DNA of 64,000 nucleotides, taken from Blasia pusilla. Taxonomy: Eukaryota. A program made the translations under genes and the position numbers. Of this stretch, positions 30,196 to 57,642 are shown in pieces. The stretch is from assembly GCA_050084515.1 (NCBI GenBank), contig CM114271.1, positions 8,246,001-8,310,000 of the forward strand. Direction: 5' to 3'. The notes below the pieces were generated by a model, which made no database searches, had not been told where the DNA came from, and saw nothing but the letters and a program-made list of their open reading frames with translations. Positions within the stretch are counted from its first letter, which is position 1, and every line of letters begins with the position of its first letter.

Positions 30196-30222
30196 GCGTT
30201 CGCCTACCCCCTTCCTCATGTT

Positions 30223-31735: not shown

Positions 31736-31739
31736 ATGA

Positions 31740-32995: not shown

Positions 32996-33091
32996 GTTTT
33001 CTGTAAACTGGAAGGTGCTATGACCTAGCTTCTCTTCCTCTCGAGTCGACCTTGGCTTGGAGGGTACTGCCTCCTCATCTATTTCATAATA

Positions 33092-33589
33092 TTATAAGTA
33101 ATATACATTGGACGAGGACTCAGTAGCGGTGGTGTTGTCTTGATCTGACGTATAGTAGTCGTCAGTCGGTGGCGTCTCTCCTTGAGACGGTCGAGATTTC
33201 CACGACAGTTTGATGAGCCGCTTCGAGTCCTGATTCGGCGCCTGGAACGTGAACCGTCGCCTTTTCCAATCTATACTCACTCTTGCGCCATACAGCCAGG
33301 GTCTTCCGATGAGCAAAGGATAGCCCGTCGCGGTGAGGGGCTGTAAGACTAAGTAGTCCAACATAAACAACACCCCCCCGAGCATGGTCGGAATTTGCGT
33401 GAGCTGTCCGAGGGGTCTCTTCCGGGATTGATCCGCAAACCGCAAGTACTTGTCCGTGGGCTCGTACACTGTGTACCCTAGGGCCCGAGCTGTTTGCTCC
33501 GTCATAATATTGATTCCGCCTCCGGAATCAATGGGGACCTTCTTAATAGTATGGCCCTCAATCTCCACCTCCACTTCGGGTGCTCCCAA
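33092..33589 (-). pseudogene. pol: Element Y: aspartic protease
   Basis: VPIDSGGGINIM active site and LLIGRPWL motif. Confidence 0.92.
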
Positions 33590-33599
33590 GTCCTCGACT

Positions 33600-35849: not shown

Positions 35850-36280
35850 AAGTCCCTTGGGGGATTTGGCAACTCGCGATCACCCCCACGGTGGCGATAG
35901 GGTAAGGGTCCATGGATGGAGGTTAACTAGTGATTCTTTTTACATCTACCGGAGGGTGCCTGGTGCTCCTATGCTTCCTGCCAGGTTTTCCTCCCATAGA
36001 CAGAAGTACCGGGTTTTCACCAAGTACCACTATCGTCCATGGGCGAAGCACCGTTCGGCGACCGGTTCTTTGACCATTCTATTTAGTTGGCCTATCTTCT
36101 TTAGCACCAATGCAGCAACTGTATTGTTATCTTCAAGCATACATTGTCTTACAGGGGTCGCTAGAGCTAGCCGATGGTCTTTAGTAAGAATTAGAATGTG
36201 GGTTGTCTAGGAGCGAAGCTTCTTTCTCCGTTCCCTACTTCCCCATGGGTCTTTCTCTCCCTTCTCAGCCAAGGATATGA

Positions 36281-36298
36281 TCCCCGGTTGCGGCGCCA
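36281..36298 (-). promoter_or_regulatory. Primer binding site, tRNA-Asp type (element Y)
   Basis: The minus strand reads tggcgccgcaaccgggga, 17 nt inside the 5' LTR end. Confidence 0.8.
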
Positions 36299-36315
36299 AA
36301 AAGTCTTCAACTATA

Positions 36316-37507
36316 TGTAATGTCTAAGTGTTTCTTATTTAGAGTCAATTGTAGAGTTCGATCCCCAAGAGGATCACTGTTGGATGAAAAGAGAGTATAA
36401 AGTGATGATTATGTTGTAAAAGTGTAATTGATTATGTAATTCAAATGTGGTATTCCAGTAACATCTTCCGATCCTTTTTAGTACCTATGTTTTCTTCTTC
36501 AATTCTCTCGAGTGGAGTTTAAAGGACGCTCAGGCTATTTGTTCTCTTGACATCTCGGAACCTCACAGAGATCTCAAGAATAAAGCTGGCTTCTCCTACT
36601 TTCGGAACTCAATCCGTCGGGGTAGGTTACTCTCTGTCAAACAGATTTCATACAACTTTATGTTGATTATTCCATTGATGAGAAAGGTTCACTTTGATTC
36701 ACTCTTCACTCAGTGAGACTCCAAAAAGAATATTCAGACATAAGCATCGCACATCAGAATGAATGAATGAATGCTTTACTACTCCATCAAGAATTGGAAG
36801 ACTTCAAAGTATATACAAGCTCGAGAGGGTACAACTCTCTTGCTCGGACCATTCCTACAGCATAAGGACTTCATGAGCGAATGATGCTCATAGCTTCTGT
36901 CCTGTTTCTTAAATATTCTCGAGAATAGGATTGCTTCTATGATCCGAAGCGTTCTTGATGAAGTTGGTGTCTCTTCAATATCTGTAACTACCTAGATCTA
37001 TGGTTCTCTTAGCTTTTCCTACGATCCTTATGAATCCGCGGTGCAAAACTGTCCTAACTACCAATTTGATACAAAGGGTCTCGCCCTTTCCTAGTCTAAT
37101 TGTTCTAAGTATGTGTCGTTTCGAATCTCAATTCTGCGGAGCTTCGCTGCGCTAAATTTTCGGAGGACGAAGTTCTTCCTTCTTCTTCTTGCTTCGTGCT
37201 TCGTGCTTCGCTCTTCGTTCAAGAGCAAAGTACTTCGTATATAGAGCTTCGTTAAGCTTCGTTAGACTTTGTTAAACTCTATTAAGCTTCGCTAAGCTTC
37301 GCTGAGCTTTTATACTTCTTTACAGCTTTTGATTCTCCTCTAAGGCAAATCCTTGATCTTCCATCTCTCTGCCTTGTCTTAGGAGCTTGGTGATTCACTT
37401 GTTCATCTTCATAATAATAGATAATCATAATCAAAATCATAATATACAAGAGTCTTCGTTGAATAAAAAGATATATTCTTCAAGATTACAAAATTGTGGG
37501 TATCACA
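36316..37507 (-). repeat. 5' LTR of element Y
   Basis: Direct repeat of 26737-27924. Confidence 0.97.
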
Positions 37508-41569: not shown

Positions 41570-44500
41570 CAGTTTTGTCATCAACTATTGATGGCACATG
41601 ATCTCGGGTTATGGTGTTTTCATTTTCATTTCATGCTGCTATCTTGTGATTGGTAGCCGCTTGACAACGAACGAGTACCGTGCCGTGATGCCCGTAGCCG
41701 CAACACACCGCTGATTGGCGCGTCGTACCGCTCGTGGCCGCACCGCATCATGTCGATCGTGGAGCCTCTCCTTTACTAAGGAGAAGAGCATGTGAATTTT
41801 TGACTGAGGAGGGTATGCCTCCAAGTGTCACACTGCATTCCCGAGTGTCATGCCGTTTGTAGCCGTTTCGTGTTGGTTGTGCTGCATCGGACCGGTGGAC
41901 CTGCACCGCATGTCAAGGAGGTTTGAGCAGCTTCAGTACGAGAGGAGTATGATTTGCTGATTGGAGGAGTTTTCTTCACAACCAAGTTAGGGTCAAGATT
42001 TTTAGTTTCCAAAGAGCGACATTGACTTTATTGTCAGGTTACCCATTCACATGTGAGGGATTTCCAGGTATTGGGAAGTTATTTGGGATATTGGGTTTCG
42101 TGCTGATGCTAAGAGCATTGATGATGTATGGGTTTAGGGGACATAGACCTGTGTGGGATGTCAAGAGTTGAGGATGGTTTTCGATGAAATGATAGATCAA
42201 TTTGCCACAACACGTTGCTTGTTGCCACACAACACACATCTTAGTGAGAGAGTGTAGATTGAGTGCTGCATGTTTAGTTTGAGTGATTGAGGGATTACTC
42301 GCAAGATTGGGAGTGATCGTGTGAGAGGGGCATGAGGGGCATGAAGGCCATCATGGCATCCTCGTGGGATTTTGAGAGGCGAGGTAGTGGACATGAGAGT
42401 AGCTCTGGAGGGTTTACCCGAAGTGGTGCAAGGTTTTGAGGGTCTCCACGTGAGAGACCACCTCGATCTCCTTCTATGTTGTCTTCAGACAAGGGGGAGC
42501 ATGTAGAGGAGTGTGTTAATGATCCACCATACACATTGAGTGGTCCTACTAGTTAGGCATACGAGATGGACGACCGGGGTGGAGGACCGCGTAGGTTTTT
42601 GGGTGTTGTAGGCACTATAGAGCTATACGACTTCATTGCGGAGTTTATAAGTTGGTGTAACTTACAACGGGCTAGGAACTCTAGATAGTTAAACCTGTTT
42701 ACAACATGGAATGGAATGTTCTAGCATTTAGAGGGGGCGCCCATGGACGATTACCATGAGTTATCCCATAGATATGTCGAGGAGATTGAGGCATGGCAAC
42801 TCTACTATGACCCACACTATGTATCAGGGACGGACCGGTTCCCAGATGAGGAGGAGGAGTCAAGAGAGGCTACTTCCTCTTCCACTAGTGATGTTTTAGG
42901 AGGGATGACTTACACTAGAGTAGTTGCACCGTCTAGTCGGGTTTGTTCCCGGTTCAACCCCATGGTTGAGTCCTTTGCTGAGTTGAGGGCGGGCTACCAG
43001 GGGGTACGGACGGAGAAGTTGCGGAGCATCCACGACTTTGATAGGCGCATGGGTGAGAGTTTGCATGAGGCTTACACTCGCTTGGGCTGGTTGATCAACG
43101 TCACTTAGGGGTTGACAGAGGCTCAAGCTATCCAGTAATGATACATGATGCTAGACCAGACTGTGCAGACATGGGTGCGGGAGGGGGTGCTTCTTATGAA
43201 CACCTCCCCTACGTTAAGAGATGTTTTTAGGACCGCCCAAAACATTGAGCGCAACATGGCAGAGGAGAGCGTATGTCGCGACCCTGATGACCAAACGAGC
43301 GGCAAAGCGGAACATTGGAACACTAGCGGGCTCACACTAAGATGGTTTCCGCGTTGGAGTGGTCTCGGAGAAGAGACAAGAGATGAGATGCAAGCGAGGC
43401 TTCGCGTTTCATATGTTATGGTCGCGACTGAGAAAACTGGACCAAACGCGGATCAAGACTCAAGAGGAGTCAAGTCTAGGAAGTGGGTTGCCCAAGGAAG
43501 GAATCCGGATTTGGGACGCCACTAGCGTTTGAGAGTTTCTGACTGTATTTATGGCCATAAATTTTAGTGCCAAGATGCGTTTGGAATGAATAAGGGTGCG
43601 TTGGAAAGCTTATGGAAAGGCGGTTCAGACGCACTAAATATCTATGCAAATGCATATGTAGCAGCTGAGAAACAACTCGAAAACGACTATAAGTAGAGTC
43701 AAATTGAGGGCCATAATGAAAGGCCCGACCATCCTTTTCTAAAGGGGAGGGGTTATTGGAGAACCCCAGAAGTAGTAGTTAGGGGGGAGGTCTCCAAGGA
43801 TGCTTGGGACTCAAACCTCACTTTGGGCGCCACGGGGCGGCTCAAGGGCATGGAACGGATCGGGAGTTTGGAGCTGGGCTTGAAAACGTGAACCAGGTCT
43901 ATTAAGGCGACTTTAGACATCCCTCTTGGATTCCAGCCCGAGACTCAATTACTTGGGTCCCGGTTAGGAACTCGCACGAGGTCCGTTGAACAGTTGGAAC
44001 CGCTAGGCGTGCAAGTGCCGTTTTAGGTTCCTGGACTAACCAGAAAGTATGTTCCAAGTCTTGAAGGACTTGCCATGTTGGGAACCTAGGAAGTAAGGAA
44101 GGTTGAGCTTGATGAGATGCTGAGTTGAGGACTCGGTGAGTTGGAAAGCCGCTTGACCCAAAGCTAGACTAACGTGAGTGCGTTTGGGTACAGGTCGGCG
44201 ATGAGAGCGTGTCCTAAAGAACGTACGCTTCCACAATACTAGAGATTGACGTTCAAGTAGAGTAGGCGCACGACAACATAGCCATCATGGGTTCAGGGTG
44301 AGAGCAGTCACGATTTTCTGCACCACCTATGTAGCAACGTGGACTCCGAGATAGGTCGACTGTGGCACCACAAGCTCAAGGAGGATGTCAGGAGGCCATG
44401 CCACAGAGACCCGCGCCTTCATATGCGGCTCAGCAGCAGCCGCTTATAATTACTTGTTGGTCCTGTGGTGGAGCCCATCATTAGCGCGATTGCACTCGTC

Positions 44501-46231
44501 AGGGTCATGGATGTGTGCCTCAGCATGGCGGAGGAGATGGTGCTACATTAGGAGGTTATCAGTGTGACTATTTTCAGAGGTATGGTCACACACGCGCCAG
44601 GTGTTTCAATTTACACCTAGAGTTACGTACAGACCGAGGGCCAGAGAGGGCACCAAAGCGAGTAGCCGGTGCGGGTGGCCTACAGATTGTGCACCAAGTG
44701 GTCTCGTTGGGGGACGAGGAGCTGGAGTTTCTTGACAGGATGGTGGAGCTTCTTGTGGAGGAGGTAGAGTCCCACCACCTAGATGCATTGAGGGAGACGT
44801 CTGGCATGAGGCTGGGATGGTTGCTCAGATACAACAGCTACAGGAGCAAATTGGCACTATGGCATTGAGGTTAGCCAATGCCGGATCTGTCGCATCGACA
44901 TCATATGGAGAAGCCGGAGATATGGAGGATCTTGGTTGGATGTGCGGGGTAGCCCAGATGGAGGCCACCGCAGTTGTGACGCATGGAGCAACCGTAGAGT
45001 TGGATCCACAGCAAGGGGAAGCCAAGAAACAGACCAGGCTTCCTCAGTCTTTCACGTTGTCCAAGGCAATGAGGACGCCATCGATGGGTCCTGATCAGAG
45101 TTCTTGGAGAGTTGGTGATGTTGTTGGTATGTAGATATGGAGGGCGATGGGAGAAGCAAGTGCGATGACTCTTATTGTTGATCCTCAAGAGGGGCATGTG
45201 TTGAGCACATTGTTGGAGGCGGCCACCGTTGTGTGGTGCGCTCCTTTATTTTCTGCTTTCAATGTTAGGACGTTGGGAGGTACACTCATCCAAGTTTTTT
45301 GGTTGGCGGCTACGCTATGTGAGCGTGGAGTTGGAGTTCATGCATCACATTCAGAGGTGATTGCAGAGGAGGTGATGGATCTGCCCTTGGAGCTGATGCT
45401 CGGGCCGTCCATATAGATTCATGGCAGGCTTCGGTTGCTAGGATGGCAGAGATGCCCGCTAGACCCGCGATAGAGCATGCAATGGATTCTCCTGGTGTTG
45501 TTTTGCTGGATAATTGGGTAGAGGTCTTCCAGTTGGTGAGTCCATGAGGTAGAGCTTTTAGTCCGCAACGCGTCTTGTTGGATTTAAGAGCACAACCCCT
45601 GATATTCGAGAAAGCGTCATTCAGAGGATTGGGCTTGACGAGAGCAGATGTGGAGTGTTGTCCATTCGGGATACATAAATCCTTAGTTGGAGCGAGTACA
45701 ACATAGTATATCATCCGACAGAAGTTCATGGTGAGGAATCTCCCGGGACATCCTACATATGAGTCTGTGGTGCAAGCCAAGGCGATAGTGATTGATGCAG
45801 AGTCCTACGACGTCTTGGTTGGTAGAGCAGTGTTATATCCGATGGGGTTCTCCCTGGATTATTGGGAGGAGTATGCGTCCTACAGACTAAGATGGCTCAT
45901 TACCTGTTTGATTCACAGGTGCAATGATCGAACGACGGCAAGGAGAGATGGCGACCTTAGCAAGATTTAGTAGTGCTATCACTTGGCCTAGTGATTTGAT
46001 TGAGGGACATGTCCATGCAGAGGATACTCCCGTTTGTGATATTTCTATGGAGAGGAGTGTCATGGTAGCCGCATCAATCCGTGGAGGAGAGGTGCTGCTT
46101 TGGGGCTCCACTGAGGAGCTTCGACGCTTAGCCACTGAGCATGTGCATACTGCGTGGAGGTAGACGTTTGCTCTAGAGTGTGACGGGTTAGAGGAACCCC
46201 AAGTAGGCAGAAGTACTGCTATGACCCCTTT
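41570..46231 (+). mobile_element. Ty3/gypsy family M, copy A (leader, gag, zinc knuckles, protease, linker), truncated just before the methyltransferase
   Basis: Collinear inverted homology to 50445-54187. gag-like 42560-44620 and protease RVLLDLRAQPL..YDVLVG (~45570-45830). Ends at AMTP. Confidence 0.85.
43274..44275 (+). mobile_element. Solo LTR of the chromovirus family inserted in gag of copy A
   Basis: tgtcgcg...cacgaca termini. Degenerate TSD gcgta/acata. The empty site is visible in copy B at ~52455-52470. Confidence 0.92.
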
Positions 46232-47340
46232 TGCTAAGCTCAGATCAGCTGTACCATCAATGTTAAGAAGGTGAAATGATGCACAATTACGCACATGGTC
46301 CTTCCAAGCCATACCATCGCGTCCCTCCAATAAGAGAACACCATATGATAAAACCTCATGCACTCTCAAGATAGTGCACCTTGCAGTCACATCCAACATC
46401 GTGGATGCCATCAACTGTAAGTGGACATAGTCTCCCTGATGAAACCTCCGAATAGTAGGTCCATAACCACCTCCCCAAATAGTCTTATACCTCAACTTAT
46501 CTTGATGCTGCGCAATCGCCAAGTTCTCCAACGCCATGGGCATCACTCTCCAAGACAACTCAGCCCTTTGAGAACATTCTTGCATCCACACATCAGACTC
46601 ATCAAGGTTCAACATCTCATCAACATCTTGACAAATGGCCGTAGGTAAATCCAGCCCTTGGCCATAAAGTAGCAAGTACGGTGAGAAAGACGCTAAGGAT
46701 GCCTGCTTTGAATCTTTATCCCATCACCAACCACAATAATTGGAGGTCTTAATCTACTATGTGACCTCTCTGCAAGCCATAGTTGCGTAATCCTCTCTTC
46801 ATCGTCTACACAACCCTCTCCGTTATTCCATCCGCCTTAGGATGATCTCGTGAAATGGTGCGGTGGTCGATTAGAGCCTGATCACACAGGGCCTGAAACT
46901 CTTAGTGAAAATTTGTGCCTTGGTCTGTCAAGACCTCAGTTGGTGCATCGAAATGACTCAGCACTCAATCTAGGAACGTATACGCTACTCCCTCACTTGC
47001 TTTGTTAGGCAATGCAACCAACTCTATCGACTTCGAGAAGTGCTCGACCATCACCAACATATAACGACTATGGCACTTCGTCAAAGATAAAGATCATGCA
47101 AAATGCAAAATCCATCTATAACCTAAACCCATGATTGGAAGTGGATGCAACTATGGAGTCGAAGCATTGAAGGATGCCCAAACCCTATCACACACCATGC
47201 ATCTTGCAACAAATTGTTGAACGTCAGTCTGCATGCCTTGCCACCAATATTGTATCTAGAGCAAGTTGTACGTCTGCTTCACTCCAAAATGACCCAACTC
47301 CTCATGGGCATGGCACACCAAACGTGCTCTTTGTGAAGGA
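46232..47340 (-). pseudogene. pol: Copy B integrase
   Basis: HAHEELGHFG..YWW..CMVC (HHCC), EVLTDQGTNF core and SPYLLLYG. Confidence 0.9.
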
Positions 47341-47689
47341 TGAGGCACTACACATTCTCTACCATCCTCCCAAACTCGCAACCCATGTGTCTCCTCCCAC
47401 CAGAACCATCTCGCTCGCTGTAGGATCCGATCCCGCTCTCTAGCACCCACTGTGCTCGCTACGCTCCTAATACGCAAGTACCCCAAGATTTCTCCATCGT
47501 CGTGAATATCTTGACCCCCTATCGTCTCCTCACCGGCCTCTGGATCTAAGGACTCTCCATCAGACCTCACCATTGAAGTCTCAGCAATTAGGCTCTCTAA
47601 TGCCAACAAGCCCAAATAGGCTAACGCGTGCCATCTTGGCACCAACTCCTCATCACTCTCCCCATGCCAACGACCTCCAGTTGCATATC

Positions 47690-49090
47690 GCTGACTCGGG
47701 CATGGATTATGGCTGAAACCACATGCATCCTTGTTGAGTGTCCCAAGTCTATGCACCACCTGGAAATCATTCTCCTGCAACAACAGAGCCCACCTCGCAA
47801 GCTTCCCTATAAGCTTTTCAAAGTGCATCAACCACTTAAGTGGCTGATGATGAGTAATAATGGTTAAGGGGTTGCTAAATAAATAACATCTGAAATATGC
47901 CATTGCCCACACTGCAGCCAAGCACTCACCCTCATACGAGCTATACTTTGCCTCTACAGCGTTGTTCGAGCAACCAACGTAAGCCCCTACAAAATTTCTA
48001 CCCTAATCGTCATGCTTGGTGAGCATGGCTCCAAGCCCCAACATGCTCCAATTGGTATGCAACTAGAAAGGACGCCCCATGATGGTCTCCTCAGTATGGG
48101 GGTGGATATCAATCTGTCCTTCAGCAGTTGAAATGCTCTCTCTTGCTTATCCCTCCAATGCCACTCGTGATCCACCTTAGTCAAGAAGGTTAGCAACTTT
48201 GCAATCAAATTGAAACCCTTCACATACCAAGTTCACCAATCTGATGAATGCACGAACTCGACTCACATGTATAGGATGTGGAATGCATGAAATAGCCTTT
48301 ATCTTTGTCAGATGCATACCAAGGCCATCTGGGTATATTGTGTGACCCTGGTACTCAATCTGGTTGTAGAAGAACTTGCACTTACTTGGATATAGCTTCA
48401 ACCCATGTAATTACAATTGTCAAAATACCTCCTCTAGATGTCACTCATGCTCCTCAATGGTGGCGCTAAAGACTACGATGTCATTAATATAACACCTTGC
48501 CAAATCCAGACCTCCCAAGGTCCTATCCACGACCCTCTGAAATTCAGTTGGGTGTTCTTTAACCCAAATGGTAAGAACCATCACTGGTACAAACAATCCT
48601 TCCCATGAGGATCAATGTTCGAAAATGCAGTCTTCTGCCTATCCTCCAATCTGATAGGCAACTGATAGTATATGGTTTTAAGATCTAACAAACTGAAGAC
48701 CTTTACATGCCCAATAGCATCAAAGATCTCCTCAGGGATTAGCATGACATACCTATCGGACTTCATCTATGGATTGATAGGCCGGTAATCTCCACACATC
48801 TGCCTATACGTCCTGTTGCCATGCATATCCTTCTTGGCGGGCATGACAGTGAAATATGCATACTCTCCATGCAACATCTCCACTAGTCCAACTCCAACCA
48901 AGTCTTGGCTCCTACTATGAATCAGAGCCCTCTCCATATTACTGTACCTGTAGGATCATCCGAAGATTGGCGTGTCACTCGACAACTCAATGCGAATCCT
49001 TGGTCCCTTCAATGTATCCAAATCATGCATACTAAATGCAAAAGAACTCCTATTTCTCCTAAGGAACTGATGTGCCGCTCTCCTCTTGTC
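47690..49090 (-). pseudogene. pol: Copy B reverse transcriptase and RNase H
   Basis: MCGDYRPIN, FSLLDLKTIYYQL, LPFGLKN, CYINDIVVFS (YIDD decayed), and AAVWAMAYFRCYLFSNPLTIITHHQPLKWL. Confidence 0.92.
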
Positions 49091-49439
49091 AACTTAGGGC
49101 CCATATCTGGCTCCCAAGTCTCCATCGCGACTACGGTAGGACTCTCCAAAGCGGGTATCGGTAGTTGCTATGATGCAACTCCGTCTCGCACAATAAAACT
49201 TGCCTGCTCCTCTACATCCAACTGCAAAATCTGATCTCCTCCATGTGAAGAAACCAAAACTACGCTCGATGTCATGGCTGCCATCTCTCGGCATACCTAG
49301 AAAATATCCCAAGAAGTCCACAGATATCTATCCTTATCACCCTTGGTGTATTGATCTCCTCGGGTCTCACCCCCAACCACTGCCTCAACTATCTCGGTAG
49401 GCATAGGGCTCATCAATGTAACAATTAGGATCTGTCATA

Positions 49440-50410
49440 ACCTCAAAAGATGTTGCTCAGCTACTCCGAAGCTGATAATCCATGTCAAGAAATTCAGGTC
49501 CATCGAATGACTCAAGACATGTCGGCGTGATGCCTCTTATAGTGATGGTATTGCCGTCACTCCTATAGGGAATCCCATTGTTCCCTCTCGCTCATCGGCA
49601 TTGGGCTCCACCAATCGCTATACTAGGTCATTCCAAACCAAGCTATGTCTGGCCTCCTTGAATACATAGGAAGCTGGAAAACTCAAAAAAATGGGAAAGG
49701 CTACCCGTGGCATGCCAATTCTATCGACCATAATCAACGGCCATCGACCATCATGCCTCATTGCCTATGATCGACGACGTGCATCCAGAATAGAATCCAC
49801 CAACAAATCAGAGGGGCGCTCCACTCTCGCATAAGCCCTCCGCAAAACCTCATGTGGCACCAAGTTGGTCCACCAAAGATGTGGGCGATGTGCTCGAGAA
49901 CTTACACTGGCTGCATCCAACAACATTGTTGGGCCAATCCATAGGTGCACTTGATGTGTACTTGTCAGCACTCCGGATCGCGAATCGCCCAAAATCGGCA
50001 AATTCTCCACAATGTATGCTGGAGAACATGACTGATGCTTCTGCGAGTGTCGCAAGATCTCCCAAAACAACCTGGATTGAGTGTCAAGCAACCCGCTACC
50101 TTGTCCAACACTTGACTAGCCCTAACACAACCAACAAGCAATGACCAAATCTATGGTCCCTACCCGCTCCAAGTCCTACGCCCCTAGCAGTGAAATGTCC
50201 CTCGCTAGGGAACTCAGGTATCCCTGTACGGCGGATGTATACAACAAGTTGAGAAATTGGAGGCATAACTCCGCCACATGGTGAAGTGAAGCTCGCCTCG
50301 CAACATCATCAATCTTAAGATACAAGTACTGTTGTACATGCACTTATGTGTGCAAAACAATAGCTAAGCAAGTGCTAATCCCTCCAAAGAGATCCCACAC
50401 GCAAGTACCC
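49440..50410 (-). pseudogene. DNMT3-like C5 cytosine DNA methyltransferase domain embedded in gypsy Pol (inactivated)
   Basis: One reading frame with 7 stops: I VWDLFGGIST; II YLYLKID; III RDISLL; IV IDLVIACWLC*G*S; V GLLDTQSRLFWE; VI YIVENL; VIII LLDAASVSSRAHRPHLWWTNL; IX EPNADEREGTMGFPIGVT; X SRRHVLSHSMD. Confidence 0.9.
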
Positions 50411-50779
50411 TCCTCGAGGATGTGCCACACACTTGGGGTGGTGTCCAAAGGGGTCATAGTAGCACTCTCCGCTACCTCGGACCCAACACGCTTTGGTGCA
50501 AATCCCTCATTCCACGCCGTTTGTACATGCTCATCGGCCAAGCGTTGGAGCTCCTCACTCGAGCCCCACAGCGGCACCTCTCCTCCACGGAATGATGTGG
50601 CTACCATAACACTCCTCTCCCTAGAAGTGTCAGATGTGGGGGTGTGCTCTGCATGCTCATACCCCTCAATCAAGTCACAAGGCCACGTGATGGCGTTGCT
50701 GAATGCGGCTAATGCGCCATTTCTCTTGGCTGTCGCTCGATCACTCCACCCGTGAATCAAAGAGGTAATGAGCTAGGTT

Positions 50780-51200
50780 GCCCATCACCTGATTGCCATC
50801 CTGGTATGTAGGTTGCTGACTCCTCCTAGTAATCCAAGGGAAACCCCATCAGGTACAACACTACTCCACCAACCAAGACGTCATAGGACTCGACATCGGT
50901 CACTATCGCCTTGGCTCACACCATGGAATCATTTGTAGGATGTCCTAGGTGAATCCTCACCACGACCTCCTATTGGGTGATAAACTATGTGGTACTTGCT
51001 CCAGCCAAGAATGTATGTATCTTGAATGGACAACGCTCCACAGTAGCCCTCGTCAGGCCCAAATTTGTGAATGTCGCTTTCCCCAACATCAAGGGTTGCG
51101 CTCCTAAATTTAACAAGATACATTGCGGAAAAAAAAATCTACCTCTTAGACTAACCAAATGAAATACCTCTCCCTAGTTATCTAGGAACAAAACACATGG
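50780..51200 (-). pseudogene. pol: Copy B aspartic protease
   Basis: ILLNLGAQPLMLGK (decayed D-S-G-A site) and SYDVLVGGVVLY. Homologous to copy A 45500-45880. Confidence 0.8.
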
Positions 51201-54187
51201 AGCAACCATGGCACGCTCTATCGCGGGTCTAGCGGGAATCTTGACCATCCTAGTAGCCGCAACCTGCCATAAATCTCAGGTGGACGGCCCAAGCATCAAC
51301 TCCAAGGGCACGTCCATCACCTCCTCTGCAATCACCTCTGAACGTGATGCAGGAACACCATCTCCACGCTCAAATAGCATAGCTTCCAGCCAAAAAACCT
51401 CGGCGGGTATACCTCCCAACGTCATAACATTGGAAGCTAAAAACAAAGGAGCATGGTACACCATCATGGCCGCCCCCAACATCGTACTCGACACATGCTC
51501 CTCCCGAGCATCAGCAATAGGAGTCATCGTACTTGCTTCTCCCATCTCCCTTTGTGCTTGCATACTAACAACATCAACTCTCTGGGAACTCTAATCAAGA
51601 CCCATCGATGGGATCCTCATCGCCTCGCACAATGTGAAAGACTGAGGAAGCCTGGTTTGTTTCCTGGCTTCCCCTCTATGTGGATCCAACTCTGTGGCAT
51701 CTCCACGTGTAATAACAAGCTCTGCCTCCAACTGGATAGTCAAGCACATCGAGCCATGATCCTCCATATCTCTGGCCGCTCCATAAGACGTTGATGCCAC
51801 AGATCCAGCATTGGATAACCTCAATTCCATATAGAAAATATGTTGATGTAGTTGTTGTATCTAAGCAGCCATCCCAGCCTCATGTTGGCATCTCCCTCAA
51901 CGCATCTAAGTAGCGGAACTCTACCTCCTCCACGGGCAACTCCACCACCCCCTTGGGCAAATCGAACTCCTCGTCCGCGAACGGGACCACCTGGTGCAGG
52001 ACCTCTAGGCCCACCTAGACCAAAAACTTACTCTAGTGACCTCTCTTATCCTCGGTCAGGACATAACTGAGGGTGTAGGTTGAAACACCTAGCACATGTG
52101 TGACCGTACCTCTAACAATAGTCACAGTGATAAACTCCTAGTGCAACACCATCTCCTCCTCTATTTTGAGGCACGCGTCCATGACCTTGACGAGTGCAAT
52201 TGTATTGATGATGGGCTCCCCCACATGTCCAACAAATAAGCGCAAGTGGAATTGCATTGATGATGGGCTCCACCACATGCCCAACAAATAAGCGCATGTG
52301 GCTGCTGGTGAGCCGCATATGAAGGCACAAGTGTTTGTGGCACGGCCTCCCGGTATCCTCCCCAAGCTTGTGGTGCCATAGACCTATCTTGGAATCCACG
52401 TTGCTGCATTGGTGGTGCACGCAATCATGACTGCTCTAGCCTAGAACCCATGGTGGCCACGCTCTCCTCCGCCATGGTACGCTCAATGTTCTCGGAATTT
52501 GTAAAACATCTCTCAACGTCGGTGAGGTGTGCATAAGAAGTACCCCATCCCTCACCCATATCCGCACGTCTCAATCGAGTATCGCGTACCATGCCTAGAT
52601 AGCTTAGGACTCTCTAACCCCCCTGAGTCACGCCAATCAATCAGCGCAAGCAAGTGTAGGCCTCACGCAAACTCTCACCCGGGCGCTGCTCAAAGTCGTG
52701 GATGCTCCGCAACTTCTCAGTCCATACCCTTTGAGTAGCTCGTCCATAACTTAGCAAAGAACTCAACTATGGAGTTGAACTTGGGAAGAACTCAACAGGA
52801 CGATGCAACTGCTCCAATTCGAGTTACCCCTCCTAACACATCACTAGTGGAAGAGGAAGTAGCCTCTCATGACTCCTCCTCCTCATCTCGAAACGGCTGA
52901 GTCCATGACACATAGTGTGGGTCATAGAAGAGTCTCCATGCCTCAATCTCCCGGGCATATCTCTAGGAGAACTCATGGTAATCGTCCATGGGCGACCCCT
53001 CTAAATGGTGGAACATTCCGTTCCATGCTGTAAATGGGTTTAACTCTATGGAGTTCCTAGCCCCCTGTGAGATACACCAACTCCTAAACTTTGCAATGAA
53101 CTACTGTAACTCTATAGTGCCTATAACACCCAAAAACCTATGCGGTCCTCTACCCTGGTCGTCCATCTCGTACGCCCAAATGGTAGGACCACTCAATGTG
53201 TGCGCTGAATCACTAACACACTCCTCTACGTTATCCCCCTCCTCTGACGATGACATAGAAGGAGGATGAGGCGGTCCCTCACGTGGAGACCCTCGAAAAC
53301 TCGTGCCACTTCGCGTAAATCCTCTAGAGCTACTCTCACGTCCACCACCTTGCCTCTCAAAGTCTCAAAAGGATGCAGTGATGATCCTCGTACCCCTCTC
53401 ACACGATTACTCTCAATCCTGCGAGTAATCACTCAAACTAAACATGCGGCACTCAATCTACACTCTCTCACTGAGACGTGTGCTATGTAGCAATAAGCAG
53501 CGTGGTGCGGAAAATTGGCTACTATCCTATCATCTCATCGACAGAACATACCCTCGACTCTGGACATCCCACATAGGTCTTTGTCGCCTAAACCCATACA
53601 TCAATGATGCTCGTAGCATCTCCACGAAACCCAATATCCCTAGTAACTACCCAATTCCCGGAATTCCCTCACACGTGCAGGGCAAAAGACTTGAATGGAT
53701 AACCTGACAACAAATGTCGATGTCGCTCCTCAATCAGCAACTGTAAATCTTGACCCCAAGTTGATTGTGAAGGCAAAACTCCTCCAATCAGCAAGTCATA
53801 CTCATGTGATACTGATAATGCTTAAATCTCCTCGATGTGCGGTGCTGGTCCAGAGGTACAGTGCGGTACAGGTGACACACAATGGCTATATACGGCATGG
53901 CACTTGGGAATGTGGTGCAACACTCAGTGGCATACCCTCCTCAATAAAAAAAATACACTCTCTGCTCCCAATGATGGTGCGGCTCTGCGATCGAGATGGT
54001 GTAGTGCGGCCATGAGTGGCATGACGCGGCAATGGGCCGCTGGTTGCGGCTACAAGCGTCATGGCATGGTACTTGATTGTCGTCAAGCGGCTACAAATCA
54101 TGGCATATCCAAGCGGAAAGAAAACTTGGACCTCATAAATCCAAGGATCACTTGTCACTGTCGGCGGCCAACGGAAACCATAGTAAC

Positions 54188-55151
54188 TTTCGCGACGCTC
54201 ATGACCAAACGAGTGCCAAAGCGGAACATCGGAACATTAGCGGGCTCACGCTAAGATGGTTTGCGCGTTGGAGTAGTCTTGAAGAAGAGACAAGAGACGA
54301 GATGCAAGCGAGGCTTCGCGTTTCAAATGTTGTGGTCACGACCGAGAAACCTAGACCAAACGGGGAATAAGACTTGAAAGGAGTTGAGTCTAGAAAGTGG
54401 GTTGCCAAAGGAAGAATCTGGATTTGGAACGCCAATAGCGTTTGAGAGTTTTGGACTGTATTTATAACCATTACTTTTAGCGCCAAGATGCGTTTGGATT
54501 AAACAAGGGTGCGTTGGAAGGCTTATGGAAATGGGATTCAAACGCACTAAAGATCTCTGCAAACGCATAAGCAACGGCTGAGAAACAACCCTGAAACGAC
54601 TATAAGTAGAGTCGGGTTGAGGGCCACAATGAAGGGCCCGATCCTCCTTTTCCAAAGGGGGTGGTCTCCAAGAGTGATTGGAACTCGAACCCCACTTTGG
54701 GCGCCATAGGGCGGCTCAAGGGCATGGAACGGATCAAGAGTTTGGGGTTGGGTTGGAAAACCTGAACCAAGTCTACAGAGGTGATTTTAGACATCCCTCT
54801 TGGATTTCACCCCACGACTCAATTGCTTGGGTCTTGGTTTGGAACTCGCATGAGGTCCGTTGAACAGTTGGGATCGCTAGGCGCGCAAGTGCCGTTTTAG
54901 GTTCCTGGACTAATCAGGAAGTCTATTCCAAGTCTTGAAGGACTTGCCATGTTTTGGAAACTAGGAAGTAAGGAAAGTTGAGCTTGATGAGACGCCGAGT
55001 TGAGAACTCGGTGGGTTGGAACGCTGGTTGGCCCAGACCCGACTAATGAGAGTGCGTGTTTGGGTGCTGATCGGCGTTGAGATCATGTCCTACTGAACAT
55101 ACGCTTCCGCAACACTAAAGGTTGACGTTCAAGGAGAGTAGGGGCGCGACA
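54188..55151 (+). repeat. 5' LTR of the chromovirus
   Basis: Matches the solo LTR 43274-44275. Ends cgcgaca, 2 nt before the PBS. Confidence 0.93.
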
Positions 55152-55153
55152 AG

Positions 55154-55165
55154 TGGTATCAGAGC
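55154..55165 (+). promoter_or_regulatory. Primer binding site, tRNA-iMet
   Basis: tggtatcagagc. Confidence 0.95.
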
Positions 55166-55294
55166 TAATCCTTGGTGAACGAGAACTTGGGGTCGTGGGA
55201 TCAACCAGACGCTTGGGAAAACTCAAGGTAGCGGCCAGACTCAGACGCTCAAGGAGGGACGCAAGAAACGAGGAGGAGATATGAGTGAGTTGGC

Positions 55295-56961
55295 TTGAAA
55301 ATGGTGATCAAGGGAGAACAACCCAAGAAGCGCCGAATCAAGCGACGTGAACCAAGAGAGGAACCAACGCTGGACCGTGAAGCTATGGAGGAGACGGAGA
55401 CTCCCGAAGAGCTGAACGCCAGACGTGAGGACGTTCTAGAGGCGAATCCTTCCGCAGAGCCATCGGGCCAAAACTCAGGGGAACCGACCGAGTCAAGCCA
55501 GACGTTGGACTTGTTGAAGCTATTGGTGGAGCAGATGTCCCAGCAAAGCAAGCGGATTGCAGAGTTAGAGGCCACCCAACTCCGGGTGCGGGCAAAAAGC
55601 TCTGCAAGACAAACCTGCCCACGCCATTCACTGGGATGGGGCGCTCGCGGAAAGGGAAGGATTTCCTTAGAGAACTAGAACTGTACTTCGAGGCGCAGAG
55701 GTCAGCTGAGCAGGACAAGGTGACGGTAGCCATTACTTTCCTGAAGGATCATGCCCTACAATGGTGGATAGCTCAACGAGAGGAATATGTGGCCGGCGAC
55801 TCACCTCTGAGTTGGGAGGAGTTTAAGGTGTTGATTGGGGATCAATTCACTCGAGAGTACCAAGGGTTGCGCGACACGGTGGAATGCGTGCGGATGCGGG
55901 AGAGTGATTCCTTAAGCGCGTATGTGAGAGAGTTTAGTGCGAAACTGACTTCTCTTCCAAAGATGGATGAGCACGCAAAGAAGGCTATCTTCATTAGTGG
56001 ACTCAAGTCAAGCGCTGAAAAGGCCCTTTACCGAATGCCGACGTTGCCAGATACCTGCGCGGATCTTCTGAAGCTAGCGGAGTGGATTGGGGATGATGAG
56101 GTCCAAACCCATAAACCCTTTGAGCCAAAAGGTTTTCCGAAGAAGTCAAAAAATAATGAGACGTTCAAAAGAGTCTAGAGTGGGGGCCAGCATGATCCAG
56201 GAGAGTCGTCTGTCCCAAAAGCAACACGAGTGGAACTTCATGCGAAGCCAAGAGGAGGACAACACTCGAAGTCAGGGAATGGCAAGGTCATATGCTACAA
56301 TTGTGGCAAACCGGGGCACCTGGCGAAAGTGTGTTCAAAACCGAAGGTCAGTAATGGGAGTATGATTGCATTTGCTGCTAAGCATCTGTTGGCAGGTGAT
56401 CTCGAGACGTCCCTCCAGGTCACCAAGAGGACGCACAATTTGGTGTACCTAAGGTCCAAGATTGCTCATCGCGATGTGTTGTTGCTCGTGGATACACGTG
56501 CTTCGCACTCCTTCCTAAGCCCAAGAATCGTGAAGGAACTGGGGTTGTCTACCTCTAAGGCGGATGAGCCCATTCAAGTAGGATTTGCATGAGGCAAGTC
56601 TCATCCGACTTCTGAATTGGTCTTGGGTTTGACCGTAGGATGCGGGGTATTCCAGTTGAAGGAGAATTTCACTGTGTGTGAAATGGATGGCATTGACGGA
56701 GACTTGGGGAACACATTCCTAGATGCGTATGAGGTGGAGTTAAGACGTAGACCCTTGAGGCTGAGCATCTTGCTAAAAGGCAAACGGTTACAGGTGCGGT
56801 TGGTCCGTGAGGTTCCGGAGAAAAAGGAGTTAGTGAACTCGTTTACAAGGAGGAGCATGACCGAGTTCGAGGATGGATTTCTCGGCTTGATGAGACAAGT
56901 GGAGGAGGCTACAAGCAGAATACGCGGAGATCAGGACACTGCTTCAAGGGGAATCCCATAA
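55295..56961 (+). pseudogene. gag: Chromovirus gag and protease
   Basis: DFLRELELYF..FLKDHALQWW..LSAYVREF, CYNCGKPGHLAKVC and LLVDTRASHSF. Frameshifts and stops. Confidence 0.9.
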
Positions 56962-56973
56962 CCACTCTAGGAA

Positions 56974-57642
56974 GTGGTCAAGGAGTTTGAGGATGTCTTG
57001 ACAAATGAGCTTCCGACTGAACTGCCGCCACATAGAGCCGTCGATCATAAGATAGAGAAGATACCTGGTTCCCAACCGCCTTCAAAAGCACCATATAGGT
57101 TGAATCAGGAGGAACTTCTTGAGTTGAAAAGGAAGTTAAGTGAGCTCTTGGAAAAGGGTTACATTAGGACTAGCAAGTCACCTTATGGAGCACCTGTTAT
57201 TTTGGTAAAGAAGAAGGATGGAAAGATGAGGTTGTGTGTTGATTACCGTGCGCTGAATAAAGTGACAGTTCGGAACAATTATCCTCTTCCATATGTGATT
57301 GTGGCAAACTCGTTTGAGGATGTGTATACATTGGGGCTGCCGGACGAGTTCAAGATTCACCCGACCTTTCATGTGTCATTGTTGAAGAAATATCTTCAAG
57401 ATAATGGACGTTTTGAGCGGAGACAGGTGGTGAGACCGCACCCGATGATCATAAATGAAGAGCCGGAGTTTGAGATGGAGACCATCTTACGTTCGAGGCG
57501 TCGGGCCAACAAGTATGAATACTTGGTTAAATGGAAGGGCTTCCATGTGAAGGAGGCGACTTGGATTGCGAAGGCGGATTTGGAACACGCGCAAGAGTTG
57601 TTGCGAGACTTCAAGCGAACGCAAGCGAAGCACATACGTTAG
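56974..57642 (+). pseudogene. pol: In-frame RT N-terminus / integrase C-terminus / chromodomain fusion
   Basis: ..[22 protein letters not shown] joined directly to [41 protein letters not shown]. Confidence 0.92.

What the first reader, a model, noticed from the sequence alone, without database searches (positions are those of the whole stretch)
49440..50410. Ty3/gypsy retrotransposon carrying a full-length DNMT3-like cytosine methyltransferase inside Pol, between protease and RT
Seen: reading through stops in one minus-strand frame gives the C5-MTase motifs in canonical order. These are I DLFGGIST (~50371-50394), II YLKID, III DI, IV DLVIACWLC*G (codons tgt tgg ttg tgt tag, plausibly ancestral GWPCQG), V GLxDxxSxLFWE, VI YIVENL (~49999-50016), VIII DAASVSSRAHRPHLWWTNL, IX ExExxMGFP and X RRHVLSHSMD. 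The same frame continues through a linker into the RT N-terminal region (~49080), and the protease lies just upstream. Established: motifs I, IV and VIII resemble DNMT3/DRM de novo enzymes (SLFDGIATG, DLVIGGSPC, DAKEVSAAHRARYFWGNL). From memory, DNMT-bearing retrotransposons were reported in dinoflagellates and charophyte algae (de Mendoza et al. 2018); I know of no well-characterised land-plant example. Inference: the MTase was a processed Pol subunit packaged in the particle. It could methylate the element's cDNA or insertion site for self-silencing, camouflage or copy-number control. This copy is dead, and the ORF track hides the domain by splitting it.
Basis: partly seen in the sequence, partly recalled or inferred. 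Interest (0 to 1): 0.95.

Follow-up and report, generated by a model that had tools for sequence, protein, structure and literature searches.

The report
Dead gypsy retrotransposon carrying DNMT3-type methyltransferase
This is a decayed copy of a plant jumping gene whose family carries its own DNA-methylating enzyme, placed with the coat protein and protease ahead of a conserved leaky-looking stop codon, a design seen here in liverwort and moss genomes.

Summary
One minus-strand frame of 49440-50410 reads all C5-methyltransferase motifs in canonical order, at the stated coordinates. It aligns end to end with 31 proteins (best E 3e-111, 55% identity).

The copy is dead. It shows 46 stops in the pieces aligned to the near-intact relative L043, at least 6 frame changes, and no 3' LTR.

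The domain belongs to the family and is not a one-off capture. L043 reads Gag(CCHC)-PR-methylase-RT-RNaseH-integrase in one frame with two stops. The same PR-methylase fusion occurs in named Marchantia, Calypogeia and Sphagnum proteins.

The enzyme is DNMT3-type by sequence (DNMT3A E 5e-11) and by fold (TM 0.79-0.84). It has been under purifying selection.

One correction: the methylase is not in a continuous Pol. An in-frame stop separates it from RT in 56 of 57 junctions. In the window it reads TAG-CAA-CTA at 49170-49162, the plant type I readthrough context. The design is therefore probably ORF1 Gag-PR-methylase, with RT-RH-INT made by readthrough.

The closest known kind is Gypsy-Dnmt3 of Klebsormidium. 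My searches found no paper describing it in bryophytes.

The parts
46232..54103 (-). Copy B: the decayed Ty3/gypsy-type element that holds the methyltransferase. It runs from its 5' end (about 54103) to a truncated 3' end (46232) and has no 3' LTR.
   Evidence: tblastn of the L043 polyprotein gives pieces from 53322 down to 46944 in order. P0067 extends the integrase match to 46280. Homology with copy A ends at 54100. There are 46 stops in the aligned pieces (some overlap) and at least 6 frame changes.
52064..53322 (-). Gag region with two CCHC-type zinc knuckles (CWTCGGAHHQYNC at 52234-52196; YHCDYC at 52132-52115).
   Evidence: Matches L043 Gag residues 52-439 at 25-39% identity. L043 has Pfam zf-CCHC, E 5.4e-7. 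Coordinates.
50754..51881 (-). Protease region. The active-site stretch reads LLNLGAQPLMLGK at 51116-51078, where the relative L043 reads MLDSGAQPLMLG.
   Evidence: Aligns with the N-terminal parts of Calypogeia P0025 and Marchantia P0032 and with L043 residues 469-855. Related proteins P0060 and P0061 carry precomputed Pfam aspartic-protease families PF13650 and PF13975.
50727..50754 (-). Frame change between the protease frame and the methyltransferase frame. This is a defect of this copy.
   Evidence: The protease piece ends at 50754 in frame -3 and the methylase piece starts at 50727 in frame -2. Relatives P0025, P0032 and L043 have both in one frame.
49440..50470 (-). DNMT3-type C5 cytosine methyltransferase catalytic domain, motifs I to X in canonical order. 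It holds 7 in-frame stops between motif I and motif X, and the catalytic PCQ is destroyed.
49171..49439 (-). Linker after the methyltransferase, conserved in relatives and predicted disordered in the relative's model.
   Evidence: Alignment columns 425-520. pLDDT is below 50 at residues 364-395 and 417-428 of the L043 module.
49162..49170 (-). Family-wide in-frame stop and its context: TAG (49170-49168), CAA (49167-49165), CTA (49164-49162). This is UAG followed by CARYYA.
   Evidence: The type I motif is taken from passages of PMC5382211.
48336..49161 (-). RT N-terminal region and reverse transcriptase (YINDIVVFS at 48491-48465). There is a frame change near 49087-49075.
   Evidence: L043 residues 1426-1609 match at 66.8% identity. 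Pfam RVT_1 E 4.4e-9.
47772..48074 (-). RNase H domain.
   Evidence: Pfam RT_RNaseH E 3.6e-23 at residues 1976-2076 of the frame starting at 53999.
46280..47339 (-). Integrase: H2C2 zinc domain, rve core and C-terminal part.
   Evidence: Pfam Integrase_H2C2 E 4.3e-15 and rve E 4.5e-8. P0067 residues 1273-1416 of 1494 reach 46280.
41647..46231 (+). Copy A: a second, inverted copy of the same family (5' end, Gag, protease). It is split by a 1-kb insert and cut off where B's methyltransferase domain begins, so it says nothing about the methylase.
   Evidence: blastn: 41647-43272 matches 54100-52459 (79%) and 44265-46231 matches 52473-50447 (76%). tblastn finds Gag and protease pieces.
43276..44276 (+). 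1-kb insert in copy A. It is 82% like 54190-55152 and is most likely an LTR of a different (chromodomain) gypsy family, not the LTR of the methylase element.
   Evidence: Ty3 capsid/gag at 55429-56178 and a chromodomain at 56971-57642 lie on the + strand just after 55152.

Best explanation
**What it is.** Window 46232-54103 (minus strand) is an old, dead, 3'-truncated copy of a Ty3/gypsy-type LTR retrotransposon. Its family carries a catalytic-domain-only, DNMT3-type cytosine-5 DNA methyltransferase between the protease and the reverse transcriptase.

**Shown.**
- The domain is a stable, selected part of the family.
- The family occurs in liverworts (Marchantia, Calypogeia) and mosses (Sphagnum), and in many copies in the window's own organism, where family members are transcribed in sense.
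- In this clade a single in-frame stop follows the methyltransferase and its linker.

**Inferred design.**
- ORF1 encodes Gag-protease-methyltransferase.
- RT-RNaseH-integrase is made only when ribosomes read through the UAG. In the window and in L043 the stop sits in the plant type I context UAG-CAR-YYA.
- The enzyme would then be made in Gag-like amounts, more abundantly than RT and integrase.

**Inferred function.** The protease releases the methylase in or near the particle. There it methylates the element's new cDNA or the DNA around the insertion. This follows the proposal made in print for the Symbiodinium DIRS elements that carry a DNMT.

**Decay.** This copy decayed mainly by G/C to A/T transitions.
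For: **Identity**
- Motifs I-X lie in order at the stated coordinates.
- 31 relatives were found, up to E 3e-111, with an end-to-end alignment.
- The intact relative module P0033 hits DNMT3A at 4.8e-11, DNMT3B at 1.6e-8 and DNMT3C at 5.8e-8, ahead of plant DRM (9.7e-5) and bacterial HaeIII (3.4e-4).
- Its AlphaFold model (pLDDT 86.8, pTM 0.80) matches only DNMT3A/B/C chains among the rows listed. E is about 1e-19 and target-normalised TM is 0.79-0.84 for chains that hold only the catalytic domain.

**Family feature**
- L043 reads zf-CCHC, DNA_methylase (45.9 bits against a cut-off of 22), RVT_1, RT_RNaseH and Integrase_H2C2 in one frame of 2163 codons with 2 stops.
- 97 metagenome stretches were confirmed and 80 kept as loci.
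- 52 longer proteins were found, including 16 named Marchantia polymorpha and one Sphagnum fallax.
- Of 228 held proteins, 29 have the order Gag-PR-MT and 12 PR-MT.

**Selection (Nei-Gojobori)**
- L043 against the main family: methylase dN 0.30, dS 1.9, ratio 0.16. The protease ratio is 0.24.
- Among dead copies: methylase 0.56, protease 0.59, RT 0.38, RNase H 0.30.

**Stop**
- 56 of 57 junctions have a stop (38 TAG, 18 TAA, 1 GAG).
- The reading frame is the same on both sides.
- ORF1-type proteins end shortly after the domain.
- Marchantia and Sphagnum gene models that join the methylase to RT lack exactly the stretch around the stop.
- The CARYYA rule comes from PMC5382211.

**Own genome**
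- 25,808 DNA reads were laid, of which 95 were at least 99% alike.
- Three RNA runs each gave about 1,100 reads, almost all with the first mate on the + strand.
- The window has T or A where at least 25% of family reads have C or G at 555 places. The reverse holds at 123 places.
Against: **Weak points in the window copy**
- It misses the Pfam cut-off (19.6 against 22 bits) and has lost the catalytic PCQ.

**Readthrough is inferred, not shown**
- The strict CARYYA hexamer occurs only in the window, L043 and L030. The main metagenome family has CAACCC (51 of 57) or CAACTC (1).
- No conserved downstream RNA structure was found (-8.3 kcal/mol, covariation term +0.11).
- More distant lineages (P0067, P0100, P0065, P0106) read straight through without a stop.
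- Most of the 57 junctions belong to one family, so they are not independent.

**Selection estimate**
- dS of 1.9 is near saturation.

**Activity is unproven**
- In yeast, the Klebsormidium Gypsy-Dnmt3 domain gave no detectable methylation. The authors called that result inconclusive (PMC5890265, section 10, read in full).

**Host identity**
- The window's organism is coded. 'Land plant' rests on its nearest named relatives only.
Confidence: 0.8

Rival explanations
1. One-off capture: this copy alone picked up a fragment of a host DNMT3 gene, or a host gene was hit by a retrotransposon. On this view the methylase is not part of the element.
For: The window copy is isolated in the window. tblastn of the domain finds no second copy there, and the neighbouring related copy A stops just before the domain.
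Against: The same protease-methylase-RT order, with homologous linkers on both sides, is found in L043. It is also found in 80 metagenome loci, in named proteins of Marchantia, Calypogeia and Sphagnum, and in 29+12 proteins by architecture. No intron-like interruptions are seen.
Confidence: 0.01
2. Continuous polyprotein: the family is built as one Gag-PR-MTase-RT-RH-INT ORF. The stop after the methylase is only decay, or an ancestral defect copied in trans.
For: More distant lineages (P0067, P0100, P0065, P0106) have no stop at this point. Most of the 57 junctions come from one family of dead copies. 18 of them read TAA, not TAG.
Against: The stop is at the same codon in four lineages that differ by 45-55% in protein: the window, L043, the main family and L079. 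A stop shared by dozens of copies must have been present in the copies that were transposing. 29 of 228 held proteins have the order Gag-PR-MT with no RT behind it, and those listed mostly end about 60-165 residues after the domain. Gene models in Marchantia and Sphagnum had to skip this spot to join RT.
Confidence: 0.1
3. The stop is real, but RT-RH-INT is not made by readthrough. It comes from a spliced or subgenomic RNA, from reinitiation, or is supplied in trans by other elements.
For: The main family lacks the strict CARYYA hexamer and no stimulatory structure was found. An RNA-only joint skips 1061 bases (47945 to 49007) in all three RNA runs, with 5, 12 and 5 reads and none in DNA. So family transcripts are processed in some way.
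Against: ORF2 is in the same frame as ORF1 with exactly one stop between them, and coding conservation runs right up to the stop on both sides. That is the layout expected for readthrough. The RNA joint removes most of RT rather than the stop.
Confidence: 0.12
4. The domain is kept for something other than methylating the element's own DNA. It might methylate RNA, act as a non-catalytic DNA- or chromatin-binding module, or interfere with the host's DNMT3 to escape silencing.
For: No activity has been shown for any Gypsy-Dnmt3 domain (PMC5890265, section 10). The same paper raises RNA methylation for the LINE-borne DNMT (passage). The domain lacks the PWWP and ADD reader domains of host DNMT3.
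Against: Catalytic motifs are nearly invariant across 45 diverse relatives: the C and Q of motif IV, the N of motif VI (its E is invariant) and the HR.R.W.N run of motif VIII. This argues for catalysis. Sequence and fold are closest to DNA-bound DNMT3A/B structures over the whole catalytic domain, including the region after motif VIII.
Confidence: 0.15

Closest known systems
KnitGypsy-Dnmt3 of the charophyte Klebsormidium nitens (de Mendoza et al. 2018, PMC5890265; abstract, passages and section 10 read)
   Same: A Dnmt3-related, non-rearranged, intron-less DNMT domain sits inside the polyprotein of a Gypsy-type retrotransposon of a streptophyte. Key residues are conserved and the domain is under purifying selection (they report Ka/Ks < 0.2; here 0.16 between lineages).
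   Different: - That paper describes the domain as part of the Pol ORF and the repeats as DIRS-like. Here the domain ends ORF1 ahead of a conserved stop, and the relative L060 has ordinary 337-bp direct LTRs.
- The named hosts here are liverworts and mosses.
- I had no K. nitens sequence, and the figure and supplements with its domain order were not visible. Direct kinship is therefore untested.
SymbioDIRS-Dnmt3 and SymbioLINE-Dnmt of dinoflagellates (same paper)
   Same: Retrotransposons that carry a DNMT. The DIRS-borne Dnmt3 domains methylate CG de novo in yeast, and the authors propose methylation of the cDNA.
   Different: They belong to other retrotransposon classes (tyrosine-recombinase DIRS, LINE), have other hosts, and came from an independent acquisition.
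Green-algal gypsy elements with the order RT-RNaseH-methylase-integrase (for example 'pol' of Scenedesmus sp. PABB004, P0103)
   Same: A related DNMT3-type domain (34-42% identity to L043) sits in a Ty3/gypsy polyprotein.
   Different: The domain sits between RNase H and integrase. On the methylase tree, the 53 rows of the window's architecture and the 85 rows of this one are separated by a single change (FastTree, 184 rows). Several carry a PHD finger.
Host DNMT3A/3B/3C (solved structures)
   Same: They give the best sequence and fold matches over the whole catalytic domain.
   Different: Identity is only about 20%. No PWWP or ADD domain is present. Motif IV reads PCQ here, whereas the DNMT3A/3B chains aligned have N at that position.
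Type I stop-codon readthrough of plant viruses (UAG-CARYYA, tobamoviruses; PMC5382211 passages) and gag-pol UAG readthrough of gammaretroviruses (recalled)
   Same: One in-frame UAG separates an abundant upstream product from the polymerase. The window and L043 carry the exact hexamer.
   Different: This is untested here. The main family has CAACCC. What lies upstream of the stop includes the protease and a methyltransferase, not Gag alone.

Membership tests
C5 cytosine DNA methyltransferase (Pfam PF00145) | Conserved motifs I, IV, VI, VIII, IX and X in the canonical, non-permuted order | tested here: met
   Window translation and coordinates; alignment with relatives.
C5 cytosine DNA methyltransferase (Pfam PF00145) | Profile score above the curated cut-off (22 bits) | tested here: not met
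   The window copy scores 19.6 bits, E 6.7e-4. The near-intact relative L043 scores 45.9 bits, and L014 and L079 score 36 and 35.3 bits. The family passes; this decayed copy does not.
C5 cytosine DNA methyltransferase (Pfam PF00145) | Catalytic Pro-Cys of motif IV and Glu-Asn-Val of motif VI | tested here: not met
   The window reads ACWLC*G in place of AGWPCQG, while ENL is kept. Relatives keep PCQ and ENV.
DNMT3 type | Closest to DNMT3 among solved methyltransferases, by sequence and by fold | tested here: met
   phmmer gives DNMT3A 4.8e-11, ahead of DRM 9.7e-5 and HaeIII 3.4e-4. Every Foldseek row listed is DNMT3A/B/C, with TM 0.79-0.84 for chains that hold only the catalytic domain.
DNMT3 type | Groups with eukaryotic DNMT3 in a tree that includes host DNMT3, DRM, CMT and DNMT1 | not tested
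   No host plant DNMT sequences could be brought in.
DNMT3 type | N-terminal PWWP and/or ADD reader domains | tested here: not met
   Pfam on the whole L043 polyprotein lists none. Only the catalytic domain is present.
Ty3/gypsy (Metaviridae-type) LTR retrotransposon | Gag with CCHC knuckle, then PR, RT, RNase H and integrase in that order | tested here: met
   Window; L043.
Ty3/gypsy (Metaviridae-type) LTR retrotransposon | Flanking long terminal repeats | tested here: inconclusive
   This copy has no 3' LTR, because it is cut at 46232. The 85-88% repeat pair belongs to another element. The relative L060 has 337-bp direct repeats, 90.8% alike, around the element. Primer binding site, polypurine tract and target-site duplication were not determined.
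Gypsy-Dnmt3 retrotransposons (de Mendoza 2018) | Dnmt3-related domain encoded within the polyprotein of a Gypsy-type element, with conserved catalytic residues and purifying selection | tested here: met
Gypsy-Dnmt3 retrotransposons (de Mendoza 2018) | Sequence kinship with the Klebsormidium elements and the same domain order and repeat structure | not testable with these tools
   No K. nitens sequence was held. The figure and supplements of PMC5890265 were not visible. The text says its repeats are DIRS-like, unlike L060.
Type I programmed stop-codon readthrough | In-frame UAG followed by CARYYA | tested here: inconclusive
   Met in the window (TAG CAA CTA) and L043 (TAG CAA CCA). L030 has TAA CAA CCA. 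51 of 57 have CAACCC, which fails the last position.
Type I programmed stop-codon readthrough | A measured readthrough product | not testable with these tools
   This needs a reporter assay, ribosome profiling or proteomics.

The most novel reading that the evidence does not exclude
Bryophyte genomes harbour an old, abundant and still transcribed clade of Ty3/gypsy elements that make a DNMT3-type enzyme in Gag-like amounts from ORF1. The replication enzymes are gated behind a leaky UAG. On this reading the transposon-borne enzyme is a real source of de novo cytosine methylation in these plants, acting on the elements' own new copies and perhaps on host DNA. Several 'DNA methyltransferase' or 'CCHC' genes annotated in Marchantia would then be transposon ORF1s. 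The clade may descend from the charophyte Gypsy-Dnmt3, which would make it a partnership that has lasted since before plants came on land.
Probability: 0.3. Interest if true: 0.8.

Novelty: new variant of a known kind. Interest (0 to 1): 0.6.

Why it matters
**What was known.** Retrotransposons that carry their own DNA methyltransferase are known from dinoflagellates and one charophyte alga. What the enzyme does for the element is still open.

**What this family adds.**
- It places the phenomenon in liverworts and mosses, including the genetic model Marchantia polymorpha. There, knock-outs, methylome sequencing and reporter assays are routine, so the question becomes testable.
- The conserved stop suggests the element doses the methylase together with Gag, and not with RT and integrase. 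That is a concrete clue to when and where the enzyme acts.

**Practical point.** Counts of host DNMT3 genes in bryophyte genomes can be inflated by these transposon ORFs.

Tried and rejected
- **Whole-genome search.** No genome is held for this window.
- **First protein search.** Restricting the search to 1375-4375-residue proteins with the decayed query found nothing. The later search with the intact module found 52.
- **LTR pair.** I first took the 85-88% repeat pair (43276-44079 and 54190-54953) for this element's LTRs and dropped that reading. blastn shows the left copy is an insert inside a second, inverted copy of the family, and the right copy precedes a + strand chromodomain element.
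- **RNA structure after the stop.** None is convincing: 8 sequences, -8.27 kcal/mol, covariation term +0.11. The one stable hairpin lies in protein-conserved sequence.
- **Loose read ends at 49074 and 50633.** They looked like module borders. The loose sequence at 49074 translates to the normal RT N-terminus of relatives, so that one is a local indel of this copy. I assumed the same for 50633 and did not check it.
- **RT pair.** The window-against-L043 RT value (dN 0.68) probably paired the wrong RT in the window and is not used.
- **Sequencing runs.** No RNA holder was listed for the stretch itself. The organism name is coded.
- **Earlier findings of this scan.** Nothing by place or by sequence.
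- **Atlas look-up.** It only repeated 'C5 methylase, Streptophyta'.
- **Host gene to name the organism.** The ten large ORFs tested were transposon proteins or had no family.
- **Literature.** No bryophyte or land-plant DNMT-bearing retrotransposon turned up. Subscription journals and supplements were not searchable.
Full report
**1.

| Motif | Sequence | Coordinates |
|---|---|---|
| I | DLFGGIST | 50394-50371 |
| IV | DLVIACWLC*G | 50151-50119 |
| VI | YIVENLP | 50016-49996 |
| VIII | LLDAASVSSRAHRPHLWWTNL | 49923-49861 |
| IX | EPNADEREGTMGFP | 49608-49567 |
| X | SRRHVLSHSMDLN | 49530-49492 |

The stretch 49201-50700 holds 9 in-frame stops.

On its own the decayed copy is only weakly recognisable:
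- Pfam PF00145 gives E 6.7e-4 and 19.6 bits, under the curated 22 bits.
- The best solved structure is DNMT3B at E 0.009.

Against natural proteins it is unmistakable:
- 31 proteins match at E <= 0.01. The best is 3.4e-111, at 55% identity over 97% of the query.
- The alignment runs end to end.

**2. Anatomy in the window.**

The element (copy B) lies on the minus strand from about 54103 to 46232. tblastn with a near-intact relative (L043, see section 3) gives these parts in order:
- Gag, with two CCHC knuckles at 52234-52196 and 52132-52115
- protease, 51881-50754
- methyltransferase and linker, 50727-49075
- RT, 49087-48536 and onward
- RNase H
- integrase

The integrase match reaches 46280.

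The copy is dead. The aligned pieces show 46 stops (some pieces overlap) and at least 6 frame changes. One frame change lies between protease and methylase (50754/50727) and one at the start of RT (near 49087-49075).

It has no 3' LTR. At 46231/46232 it abuts a second, inverted copy of the same family (copy A):
- Copy A spans 41647-46231 on the + strand and is 76-79% identical in DNA to B 54100-50447.
- It carries only the 5' end, Gag and protease.
- It is cut off where B's methylase domain starts.

The 85-88% direct repeats that I first took for LTRs are something else. One is a 1-kb insert inside copy A (43276-44276). The other (54190-55152) precedes a + strand chromodomain gypsy element.

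The whole window is transposon and satellite sequence.

**3. The methylase belongs to the family.**

*Metagenome scan.* A scan with the alignment found 237 pattern matches. tblastn confirmed 97, and 80 were kept as loci. Most are decayed copies of one family.

*L043.* This locus is nearly intact. One frame of 2163 codons (321-6809) has two stops. Pfam reads, in order, zf-CCHC, DNA_methylase (E 6.8e-12, 45.9 bits), RVT_1, RT_RNaseH and Integrase_H2C2, up to the contig end.

*Named proteins.*
- Calypogeia fissa (P0025) and Marchantia polymorpha (P0032) carry the same protease stretch fused to the methylase.
- A search for longer proteins with the intact L043 module found 52. These include 16 named Marchantia polymorpha, one Sphagnum fallax and one Cymbomonas.

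*Wider reach.* Against 1.84 billion cluster representatives the module has 4050 hits at E <= 0.001, 806 at <= 1e-10 and 242 at <= 1e-30.

*Architectures.* I placed L043's domains on the 228 proteins held.
- The window's order: 29 Gag-PR-MT, 12 PR-MT and a few that continue into RT.
- A second order: 40 RT-RH-MT-INT, plus partial forms. One of these is 'pol' of the green alga Scenedesmus.

On a FastTree of 184 methylase domains (53 rows of the first order, 85 of the second, 46 unlabelled), the two orders need a single change. The window falls in a well-supported set of 24 rows of the first order or unlabelled. The tree has no host outgroup and is unrooted.

**4. What kind of methylase.**

- *By sequence.* The intact module (P0033, 438 aa) is closest to DNMT3A (4.8e-11), DNMT3B (1.6e-8) and DNMT3C (5.8e-8). 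Plant DRM (9.7e-5) and bacterial HaeIII and HhaI follow.
- *By fold.* Its AlphaFold model, from a 45-sequence alignment, has mean pLDDT 86.8 and pTM 0.80. A confident core spans residues 11-350 and the tail is disordered.
- *Structure search.* Foldseek against the PDB returns only DNMT3A/B/C among the rows listed. E is about 1e-19, target-normalised TM is 0.79-0.84 for chains that hold only the catalytic domain, and identity is about 20%.
- *Reader domains.* No PWWP or ADD domain is present in the polyprotein.

It is therefore a bare DNMT3-type catalytic domain. A tree with host DNMT3, DRM and CMT could not be made.

**5. Selection.**

Nei-Gojobori estimates on codon alignments taken from single tblastn pieces:

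| Comparison | Methylase | Protease | RT | RNase H |
|---|---|---|---|---|
| Dead copies of the main family (median dN/dS) | 0.56 (736 pairs) | 0.59 | 0.38 | 0.30 |
| L043 against the main family (dN/dS) | 0.16 (dN 0.30, dS 1.9) | 0.24 | not obtained | 0.11 (one pair only) |

dS of 1.9 is near saturation. Copies with frameshifts in a domain were left out by the 90-95% coverage rule.

Between the window and L043:
- the methylase core is 54% identical;
- RT is 67%, RNase H-integrase 57%, and Gag and protease 25-39%.

The domain has therefore been kept about as carefully as the element's other enzymes.

**6. A conserved stop after the methylase.**

In L043 one of the two stops lies exactly between the methylase linker and RT. 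The window has a stop at the homologous codon, 49170-49168.

Of 57 sequences that cover the junction (56 loci and the window), 56 have a stop there: 38 TAG and 18 TAA. One has GAG. In one search the window and L079 were read one codon off. Searches show their TAG.

The reading frame is the same before and after the stop.

The next six bases:

| Hexamer after the stop | Where |
|---|---|
| CAACTA | window |
| CAACCA | L043 and L030 |
| CAACCC | 51 sequences |
| CAACTC | 1 sequence |
| TAACCC | 1 sequence (L066) |
| TAGCCA | L079 |

The plant-virus type I readthrough signal is UAG followed by CARYYA (PMC5382211, passages). The window and L043 fit it exactly. The main family fails at the last base.

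Independent support:
- 29 of the 228 held proteins have the order Gag-PR-methylase with no RT behind it. Those listed come from several lineages (Marchantia and unnamed clades) and mostly end about 60-165 residues after the domain.
- Marchantia and Sphagnum gene models that do join the methylase to RT lack precisely the stretch around the stop. This looks like a predicted intron put there to avoid it.
- More distant lineages (P0067, P0100, P0065, P0106) have no stop.

No conserved RNA structure follows the stop.

My reading is that ORF1 is Gag-PR-methylase and that RT-RH-INT is made by readthrough of the UAG. This is inferred, not shown.

**7. The family in the window's own organism.**

The organism is coded. 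Reads of one genomic and three RNA runs were laid on 46232-54103 at 88% likeness or more.

*DNA.*
- 25,808 reads were laid from about 1 in 100 of the run.
- By likeness: 95 were at least 99% alike, 1,363 were 95-99%, 10,514 were 90-95% and 13,836 were under 90%.
- The family is therefore present in many copies that differ from this one.
- Depth in the methylase bins (49388-50439) is 59-218, summing both directions.
- Over RT-integrase it is 75-656, where other gypsy families may add reads.

*RNA.*
- About 1,100 reads were laid per run, almost all with the first mate on the + strand. In the usual stranded libraries that means RNA of the minus strand, which is sense for this element.
- Depth is 2-51 over RT-integrase, 0-4.4 in the methylase core bins and 9-17 at 50440-50702.
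- Only 3-5 reads per run are at least 99% alike, so the transcripts come from other copies.

*Mutation pattern.* The window has T or A where at least a quarter of the family reads have C or G at 555 places. The reverse holds at 123 places. This copy therefore decayed mostly by G/C to A/T transitions, the pattern expected for a methylated, silenced element.

**8. What is known.**

de Mendoza et al. 2018 (PMC5890265; abstract, passages and section 10 read):
- They describe DNMT-bearing DIRS and LINE elements in Symbiodinium.
- They describe KnitGypsy-Dnmt3 in Klebsormidium nitens. [quoted passage not shown]
- In yeast the DIRS domains methylated CG. The Klebsormidium domain showed no activity, which the authors call inconclusive.

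Later papers speak of 'streptophytes (Gypsy-DNMT3)' only with reference to that work (passages of PMC12344493 and of preprint 10.64898/2026.05.21.726589).

Searches found nothing on liverworts, mosses or other land plants, and nothing on a stop after the domain. They covered DNMT3 with Marchantia and retrotransposon, papers citing the 2018 work, five Marchantia gene identifiers, 'Gypsy-DNMT3', and liverwort or bryophyte terms. The library lacks most subscription journals, and supplements were closed.

**9. Verdict.**

- The 'between protease and RT' reading is right.
- The 'one continuous ORF' reading needs correcting.
- The copy itself is a fossil.

The kind is known from one charophyte. The bryophyte distribution, the ORF1 placement and the conserved stop make it a new variant of that kind.

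Function remains inference. This covers release by the protease and methylation of the cDNA or of the insertion site.

Noticed in passing
window 4190-10191: A roughly 6-kb array of a 180-bp tandem repeat, with copies 62-86% alike to the reference copies. It looks like a satellite of the kind found at plant centromeres.
   Followed up: no
window 26737-37340: A young LTR retrotransposon whose terminal repeats (26737-27757 and 36316-37340) are 99-100% identical. Between them lie gag, RNase H and integrase ORFs on the minus strand. It is only 25.6% identical to the methylase family in RT-integrase and shows no methylase.
   Followed up: partly
window 54190-57642 and 43276-44276: A + strand chromodomain gypsy element: Ty3 capsid/gag at 55429-56178, and an SH3-like domain plus chromodomain at 56971-57642. 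It appears to have a large internal deletion. Its 1-kb left repeat has an 82% copy inserted into copy A of the methylase family.
   Followed up: partly
window 47945-49007: An RNA-only joint that skips 1061 bases (most of RT), seen in all three RNA runs (5, 12 and 5 reads) and in no DNA read. It could be a spliced or defective family transcript.
   Followed up: no
proteins P0069-P0083, P0096, P0099, P0103 and others: A large second group of gypsy polyproteins carries a related DNMT3-type domain between RNase H and integrase, often with a PHD finger. One is 'pol' of Scenedesmus sp. PABB004. The two placements fall on two sides of one branch of the methylase tree.
   Followed up: partly
Marchantia and Sphagnum proteins P0037, P0043, P0041, P0068: Public gene models join the methylase to RT by leaving out the stretch around the conserved stop. 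Others are named 'DNA (cytosine-5)-methyltransferase' or 'CCHC-type domain' proteins. These look like transposon ORFs annotated as host genes.
   Followed up: partly
L043 3192-3194: The only other stop in the near-intact relative lies just before the methylase module. Relatives and the window have a sense codon there, so it looks like a single defect and not a second signal.
   Followed up: yes
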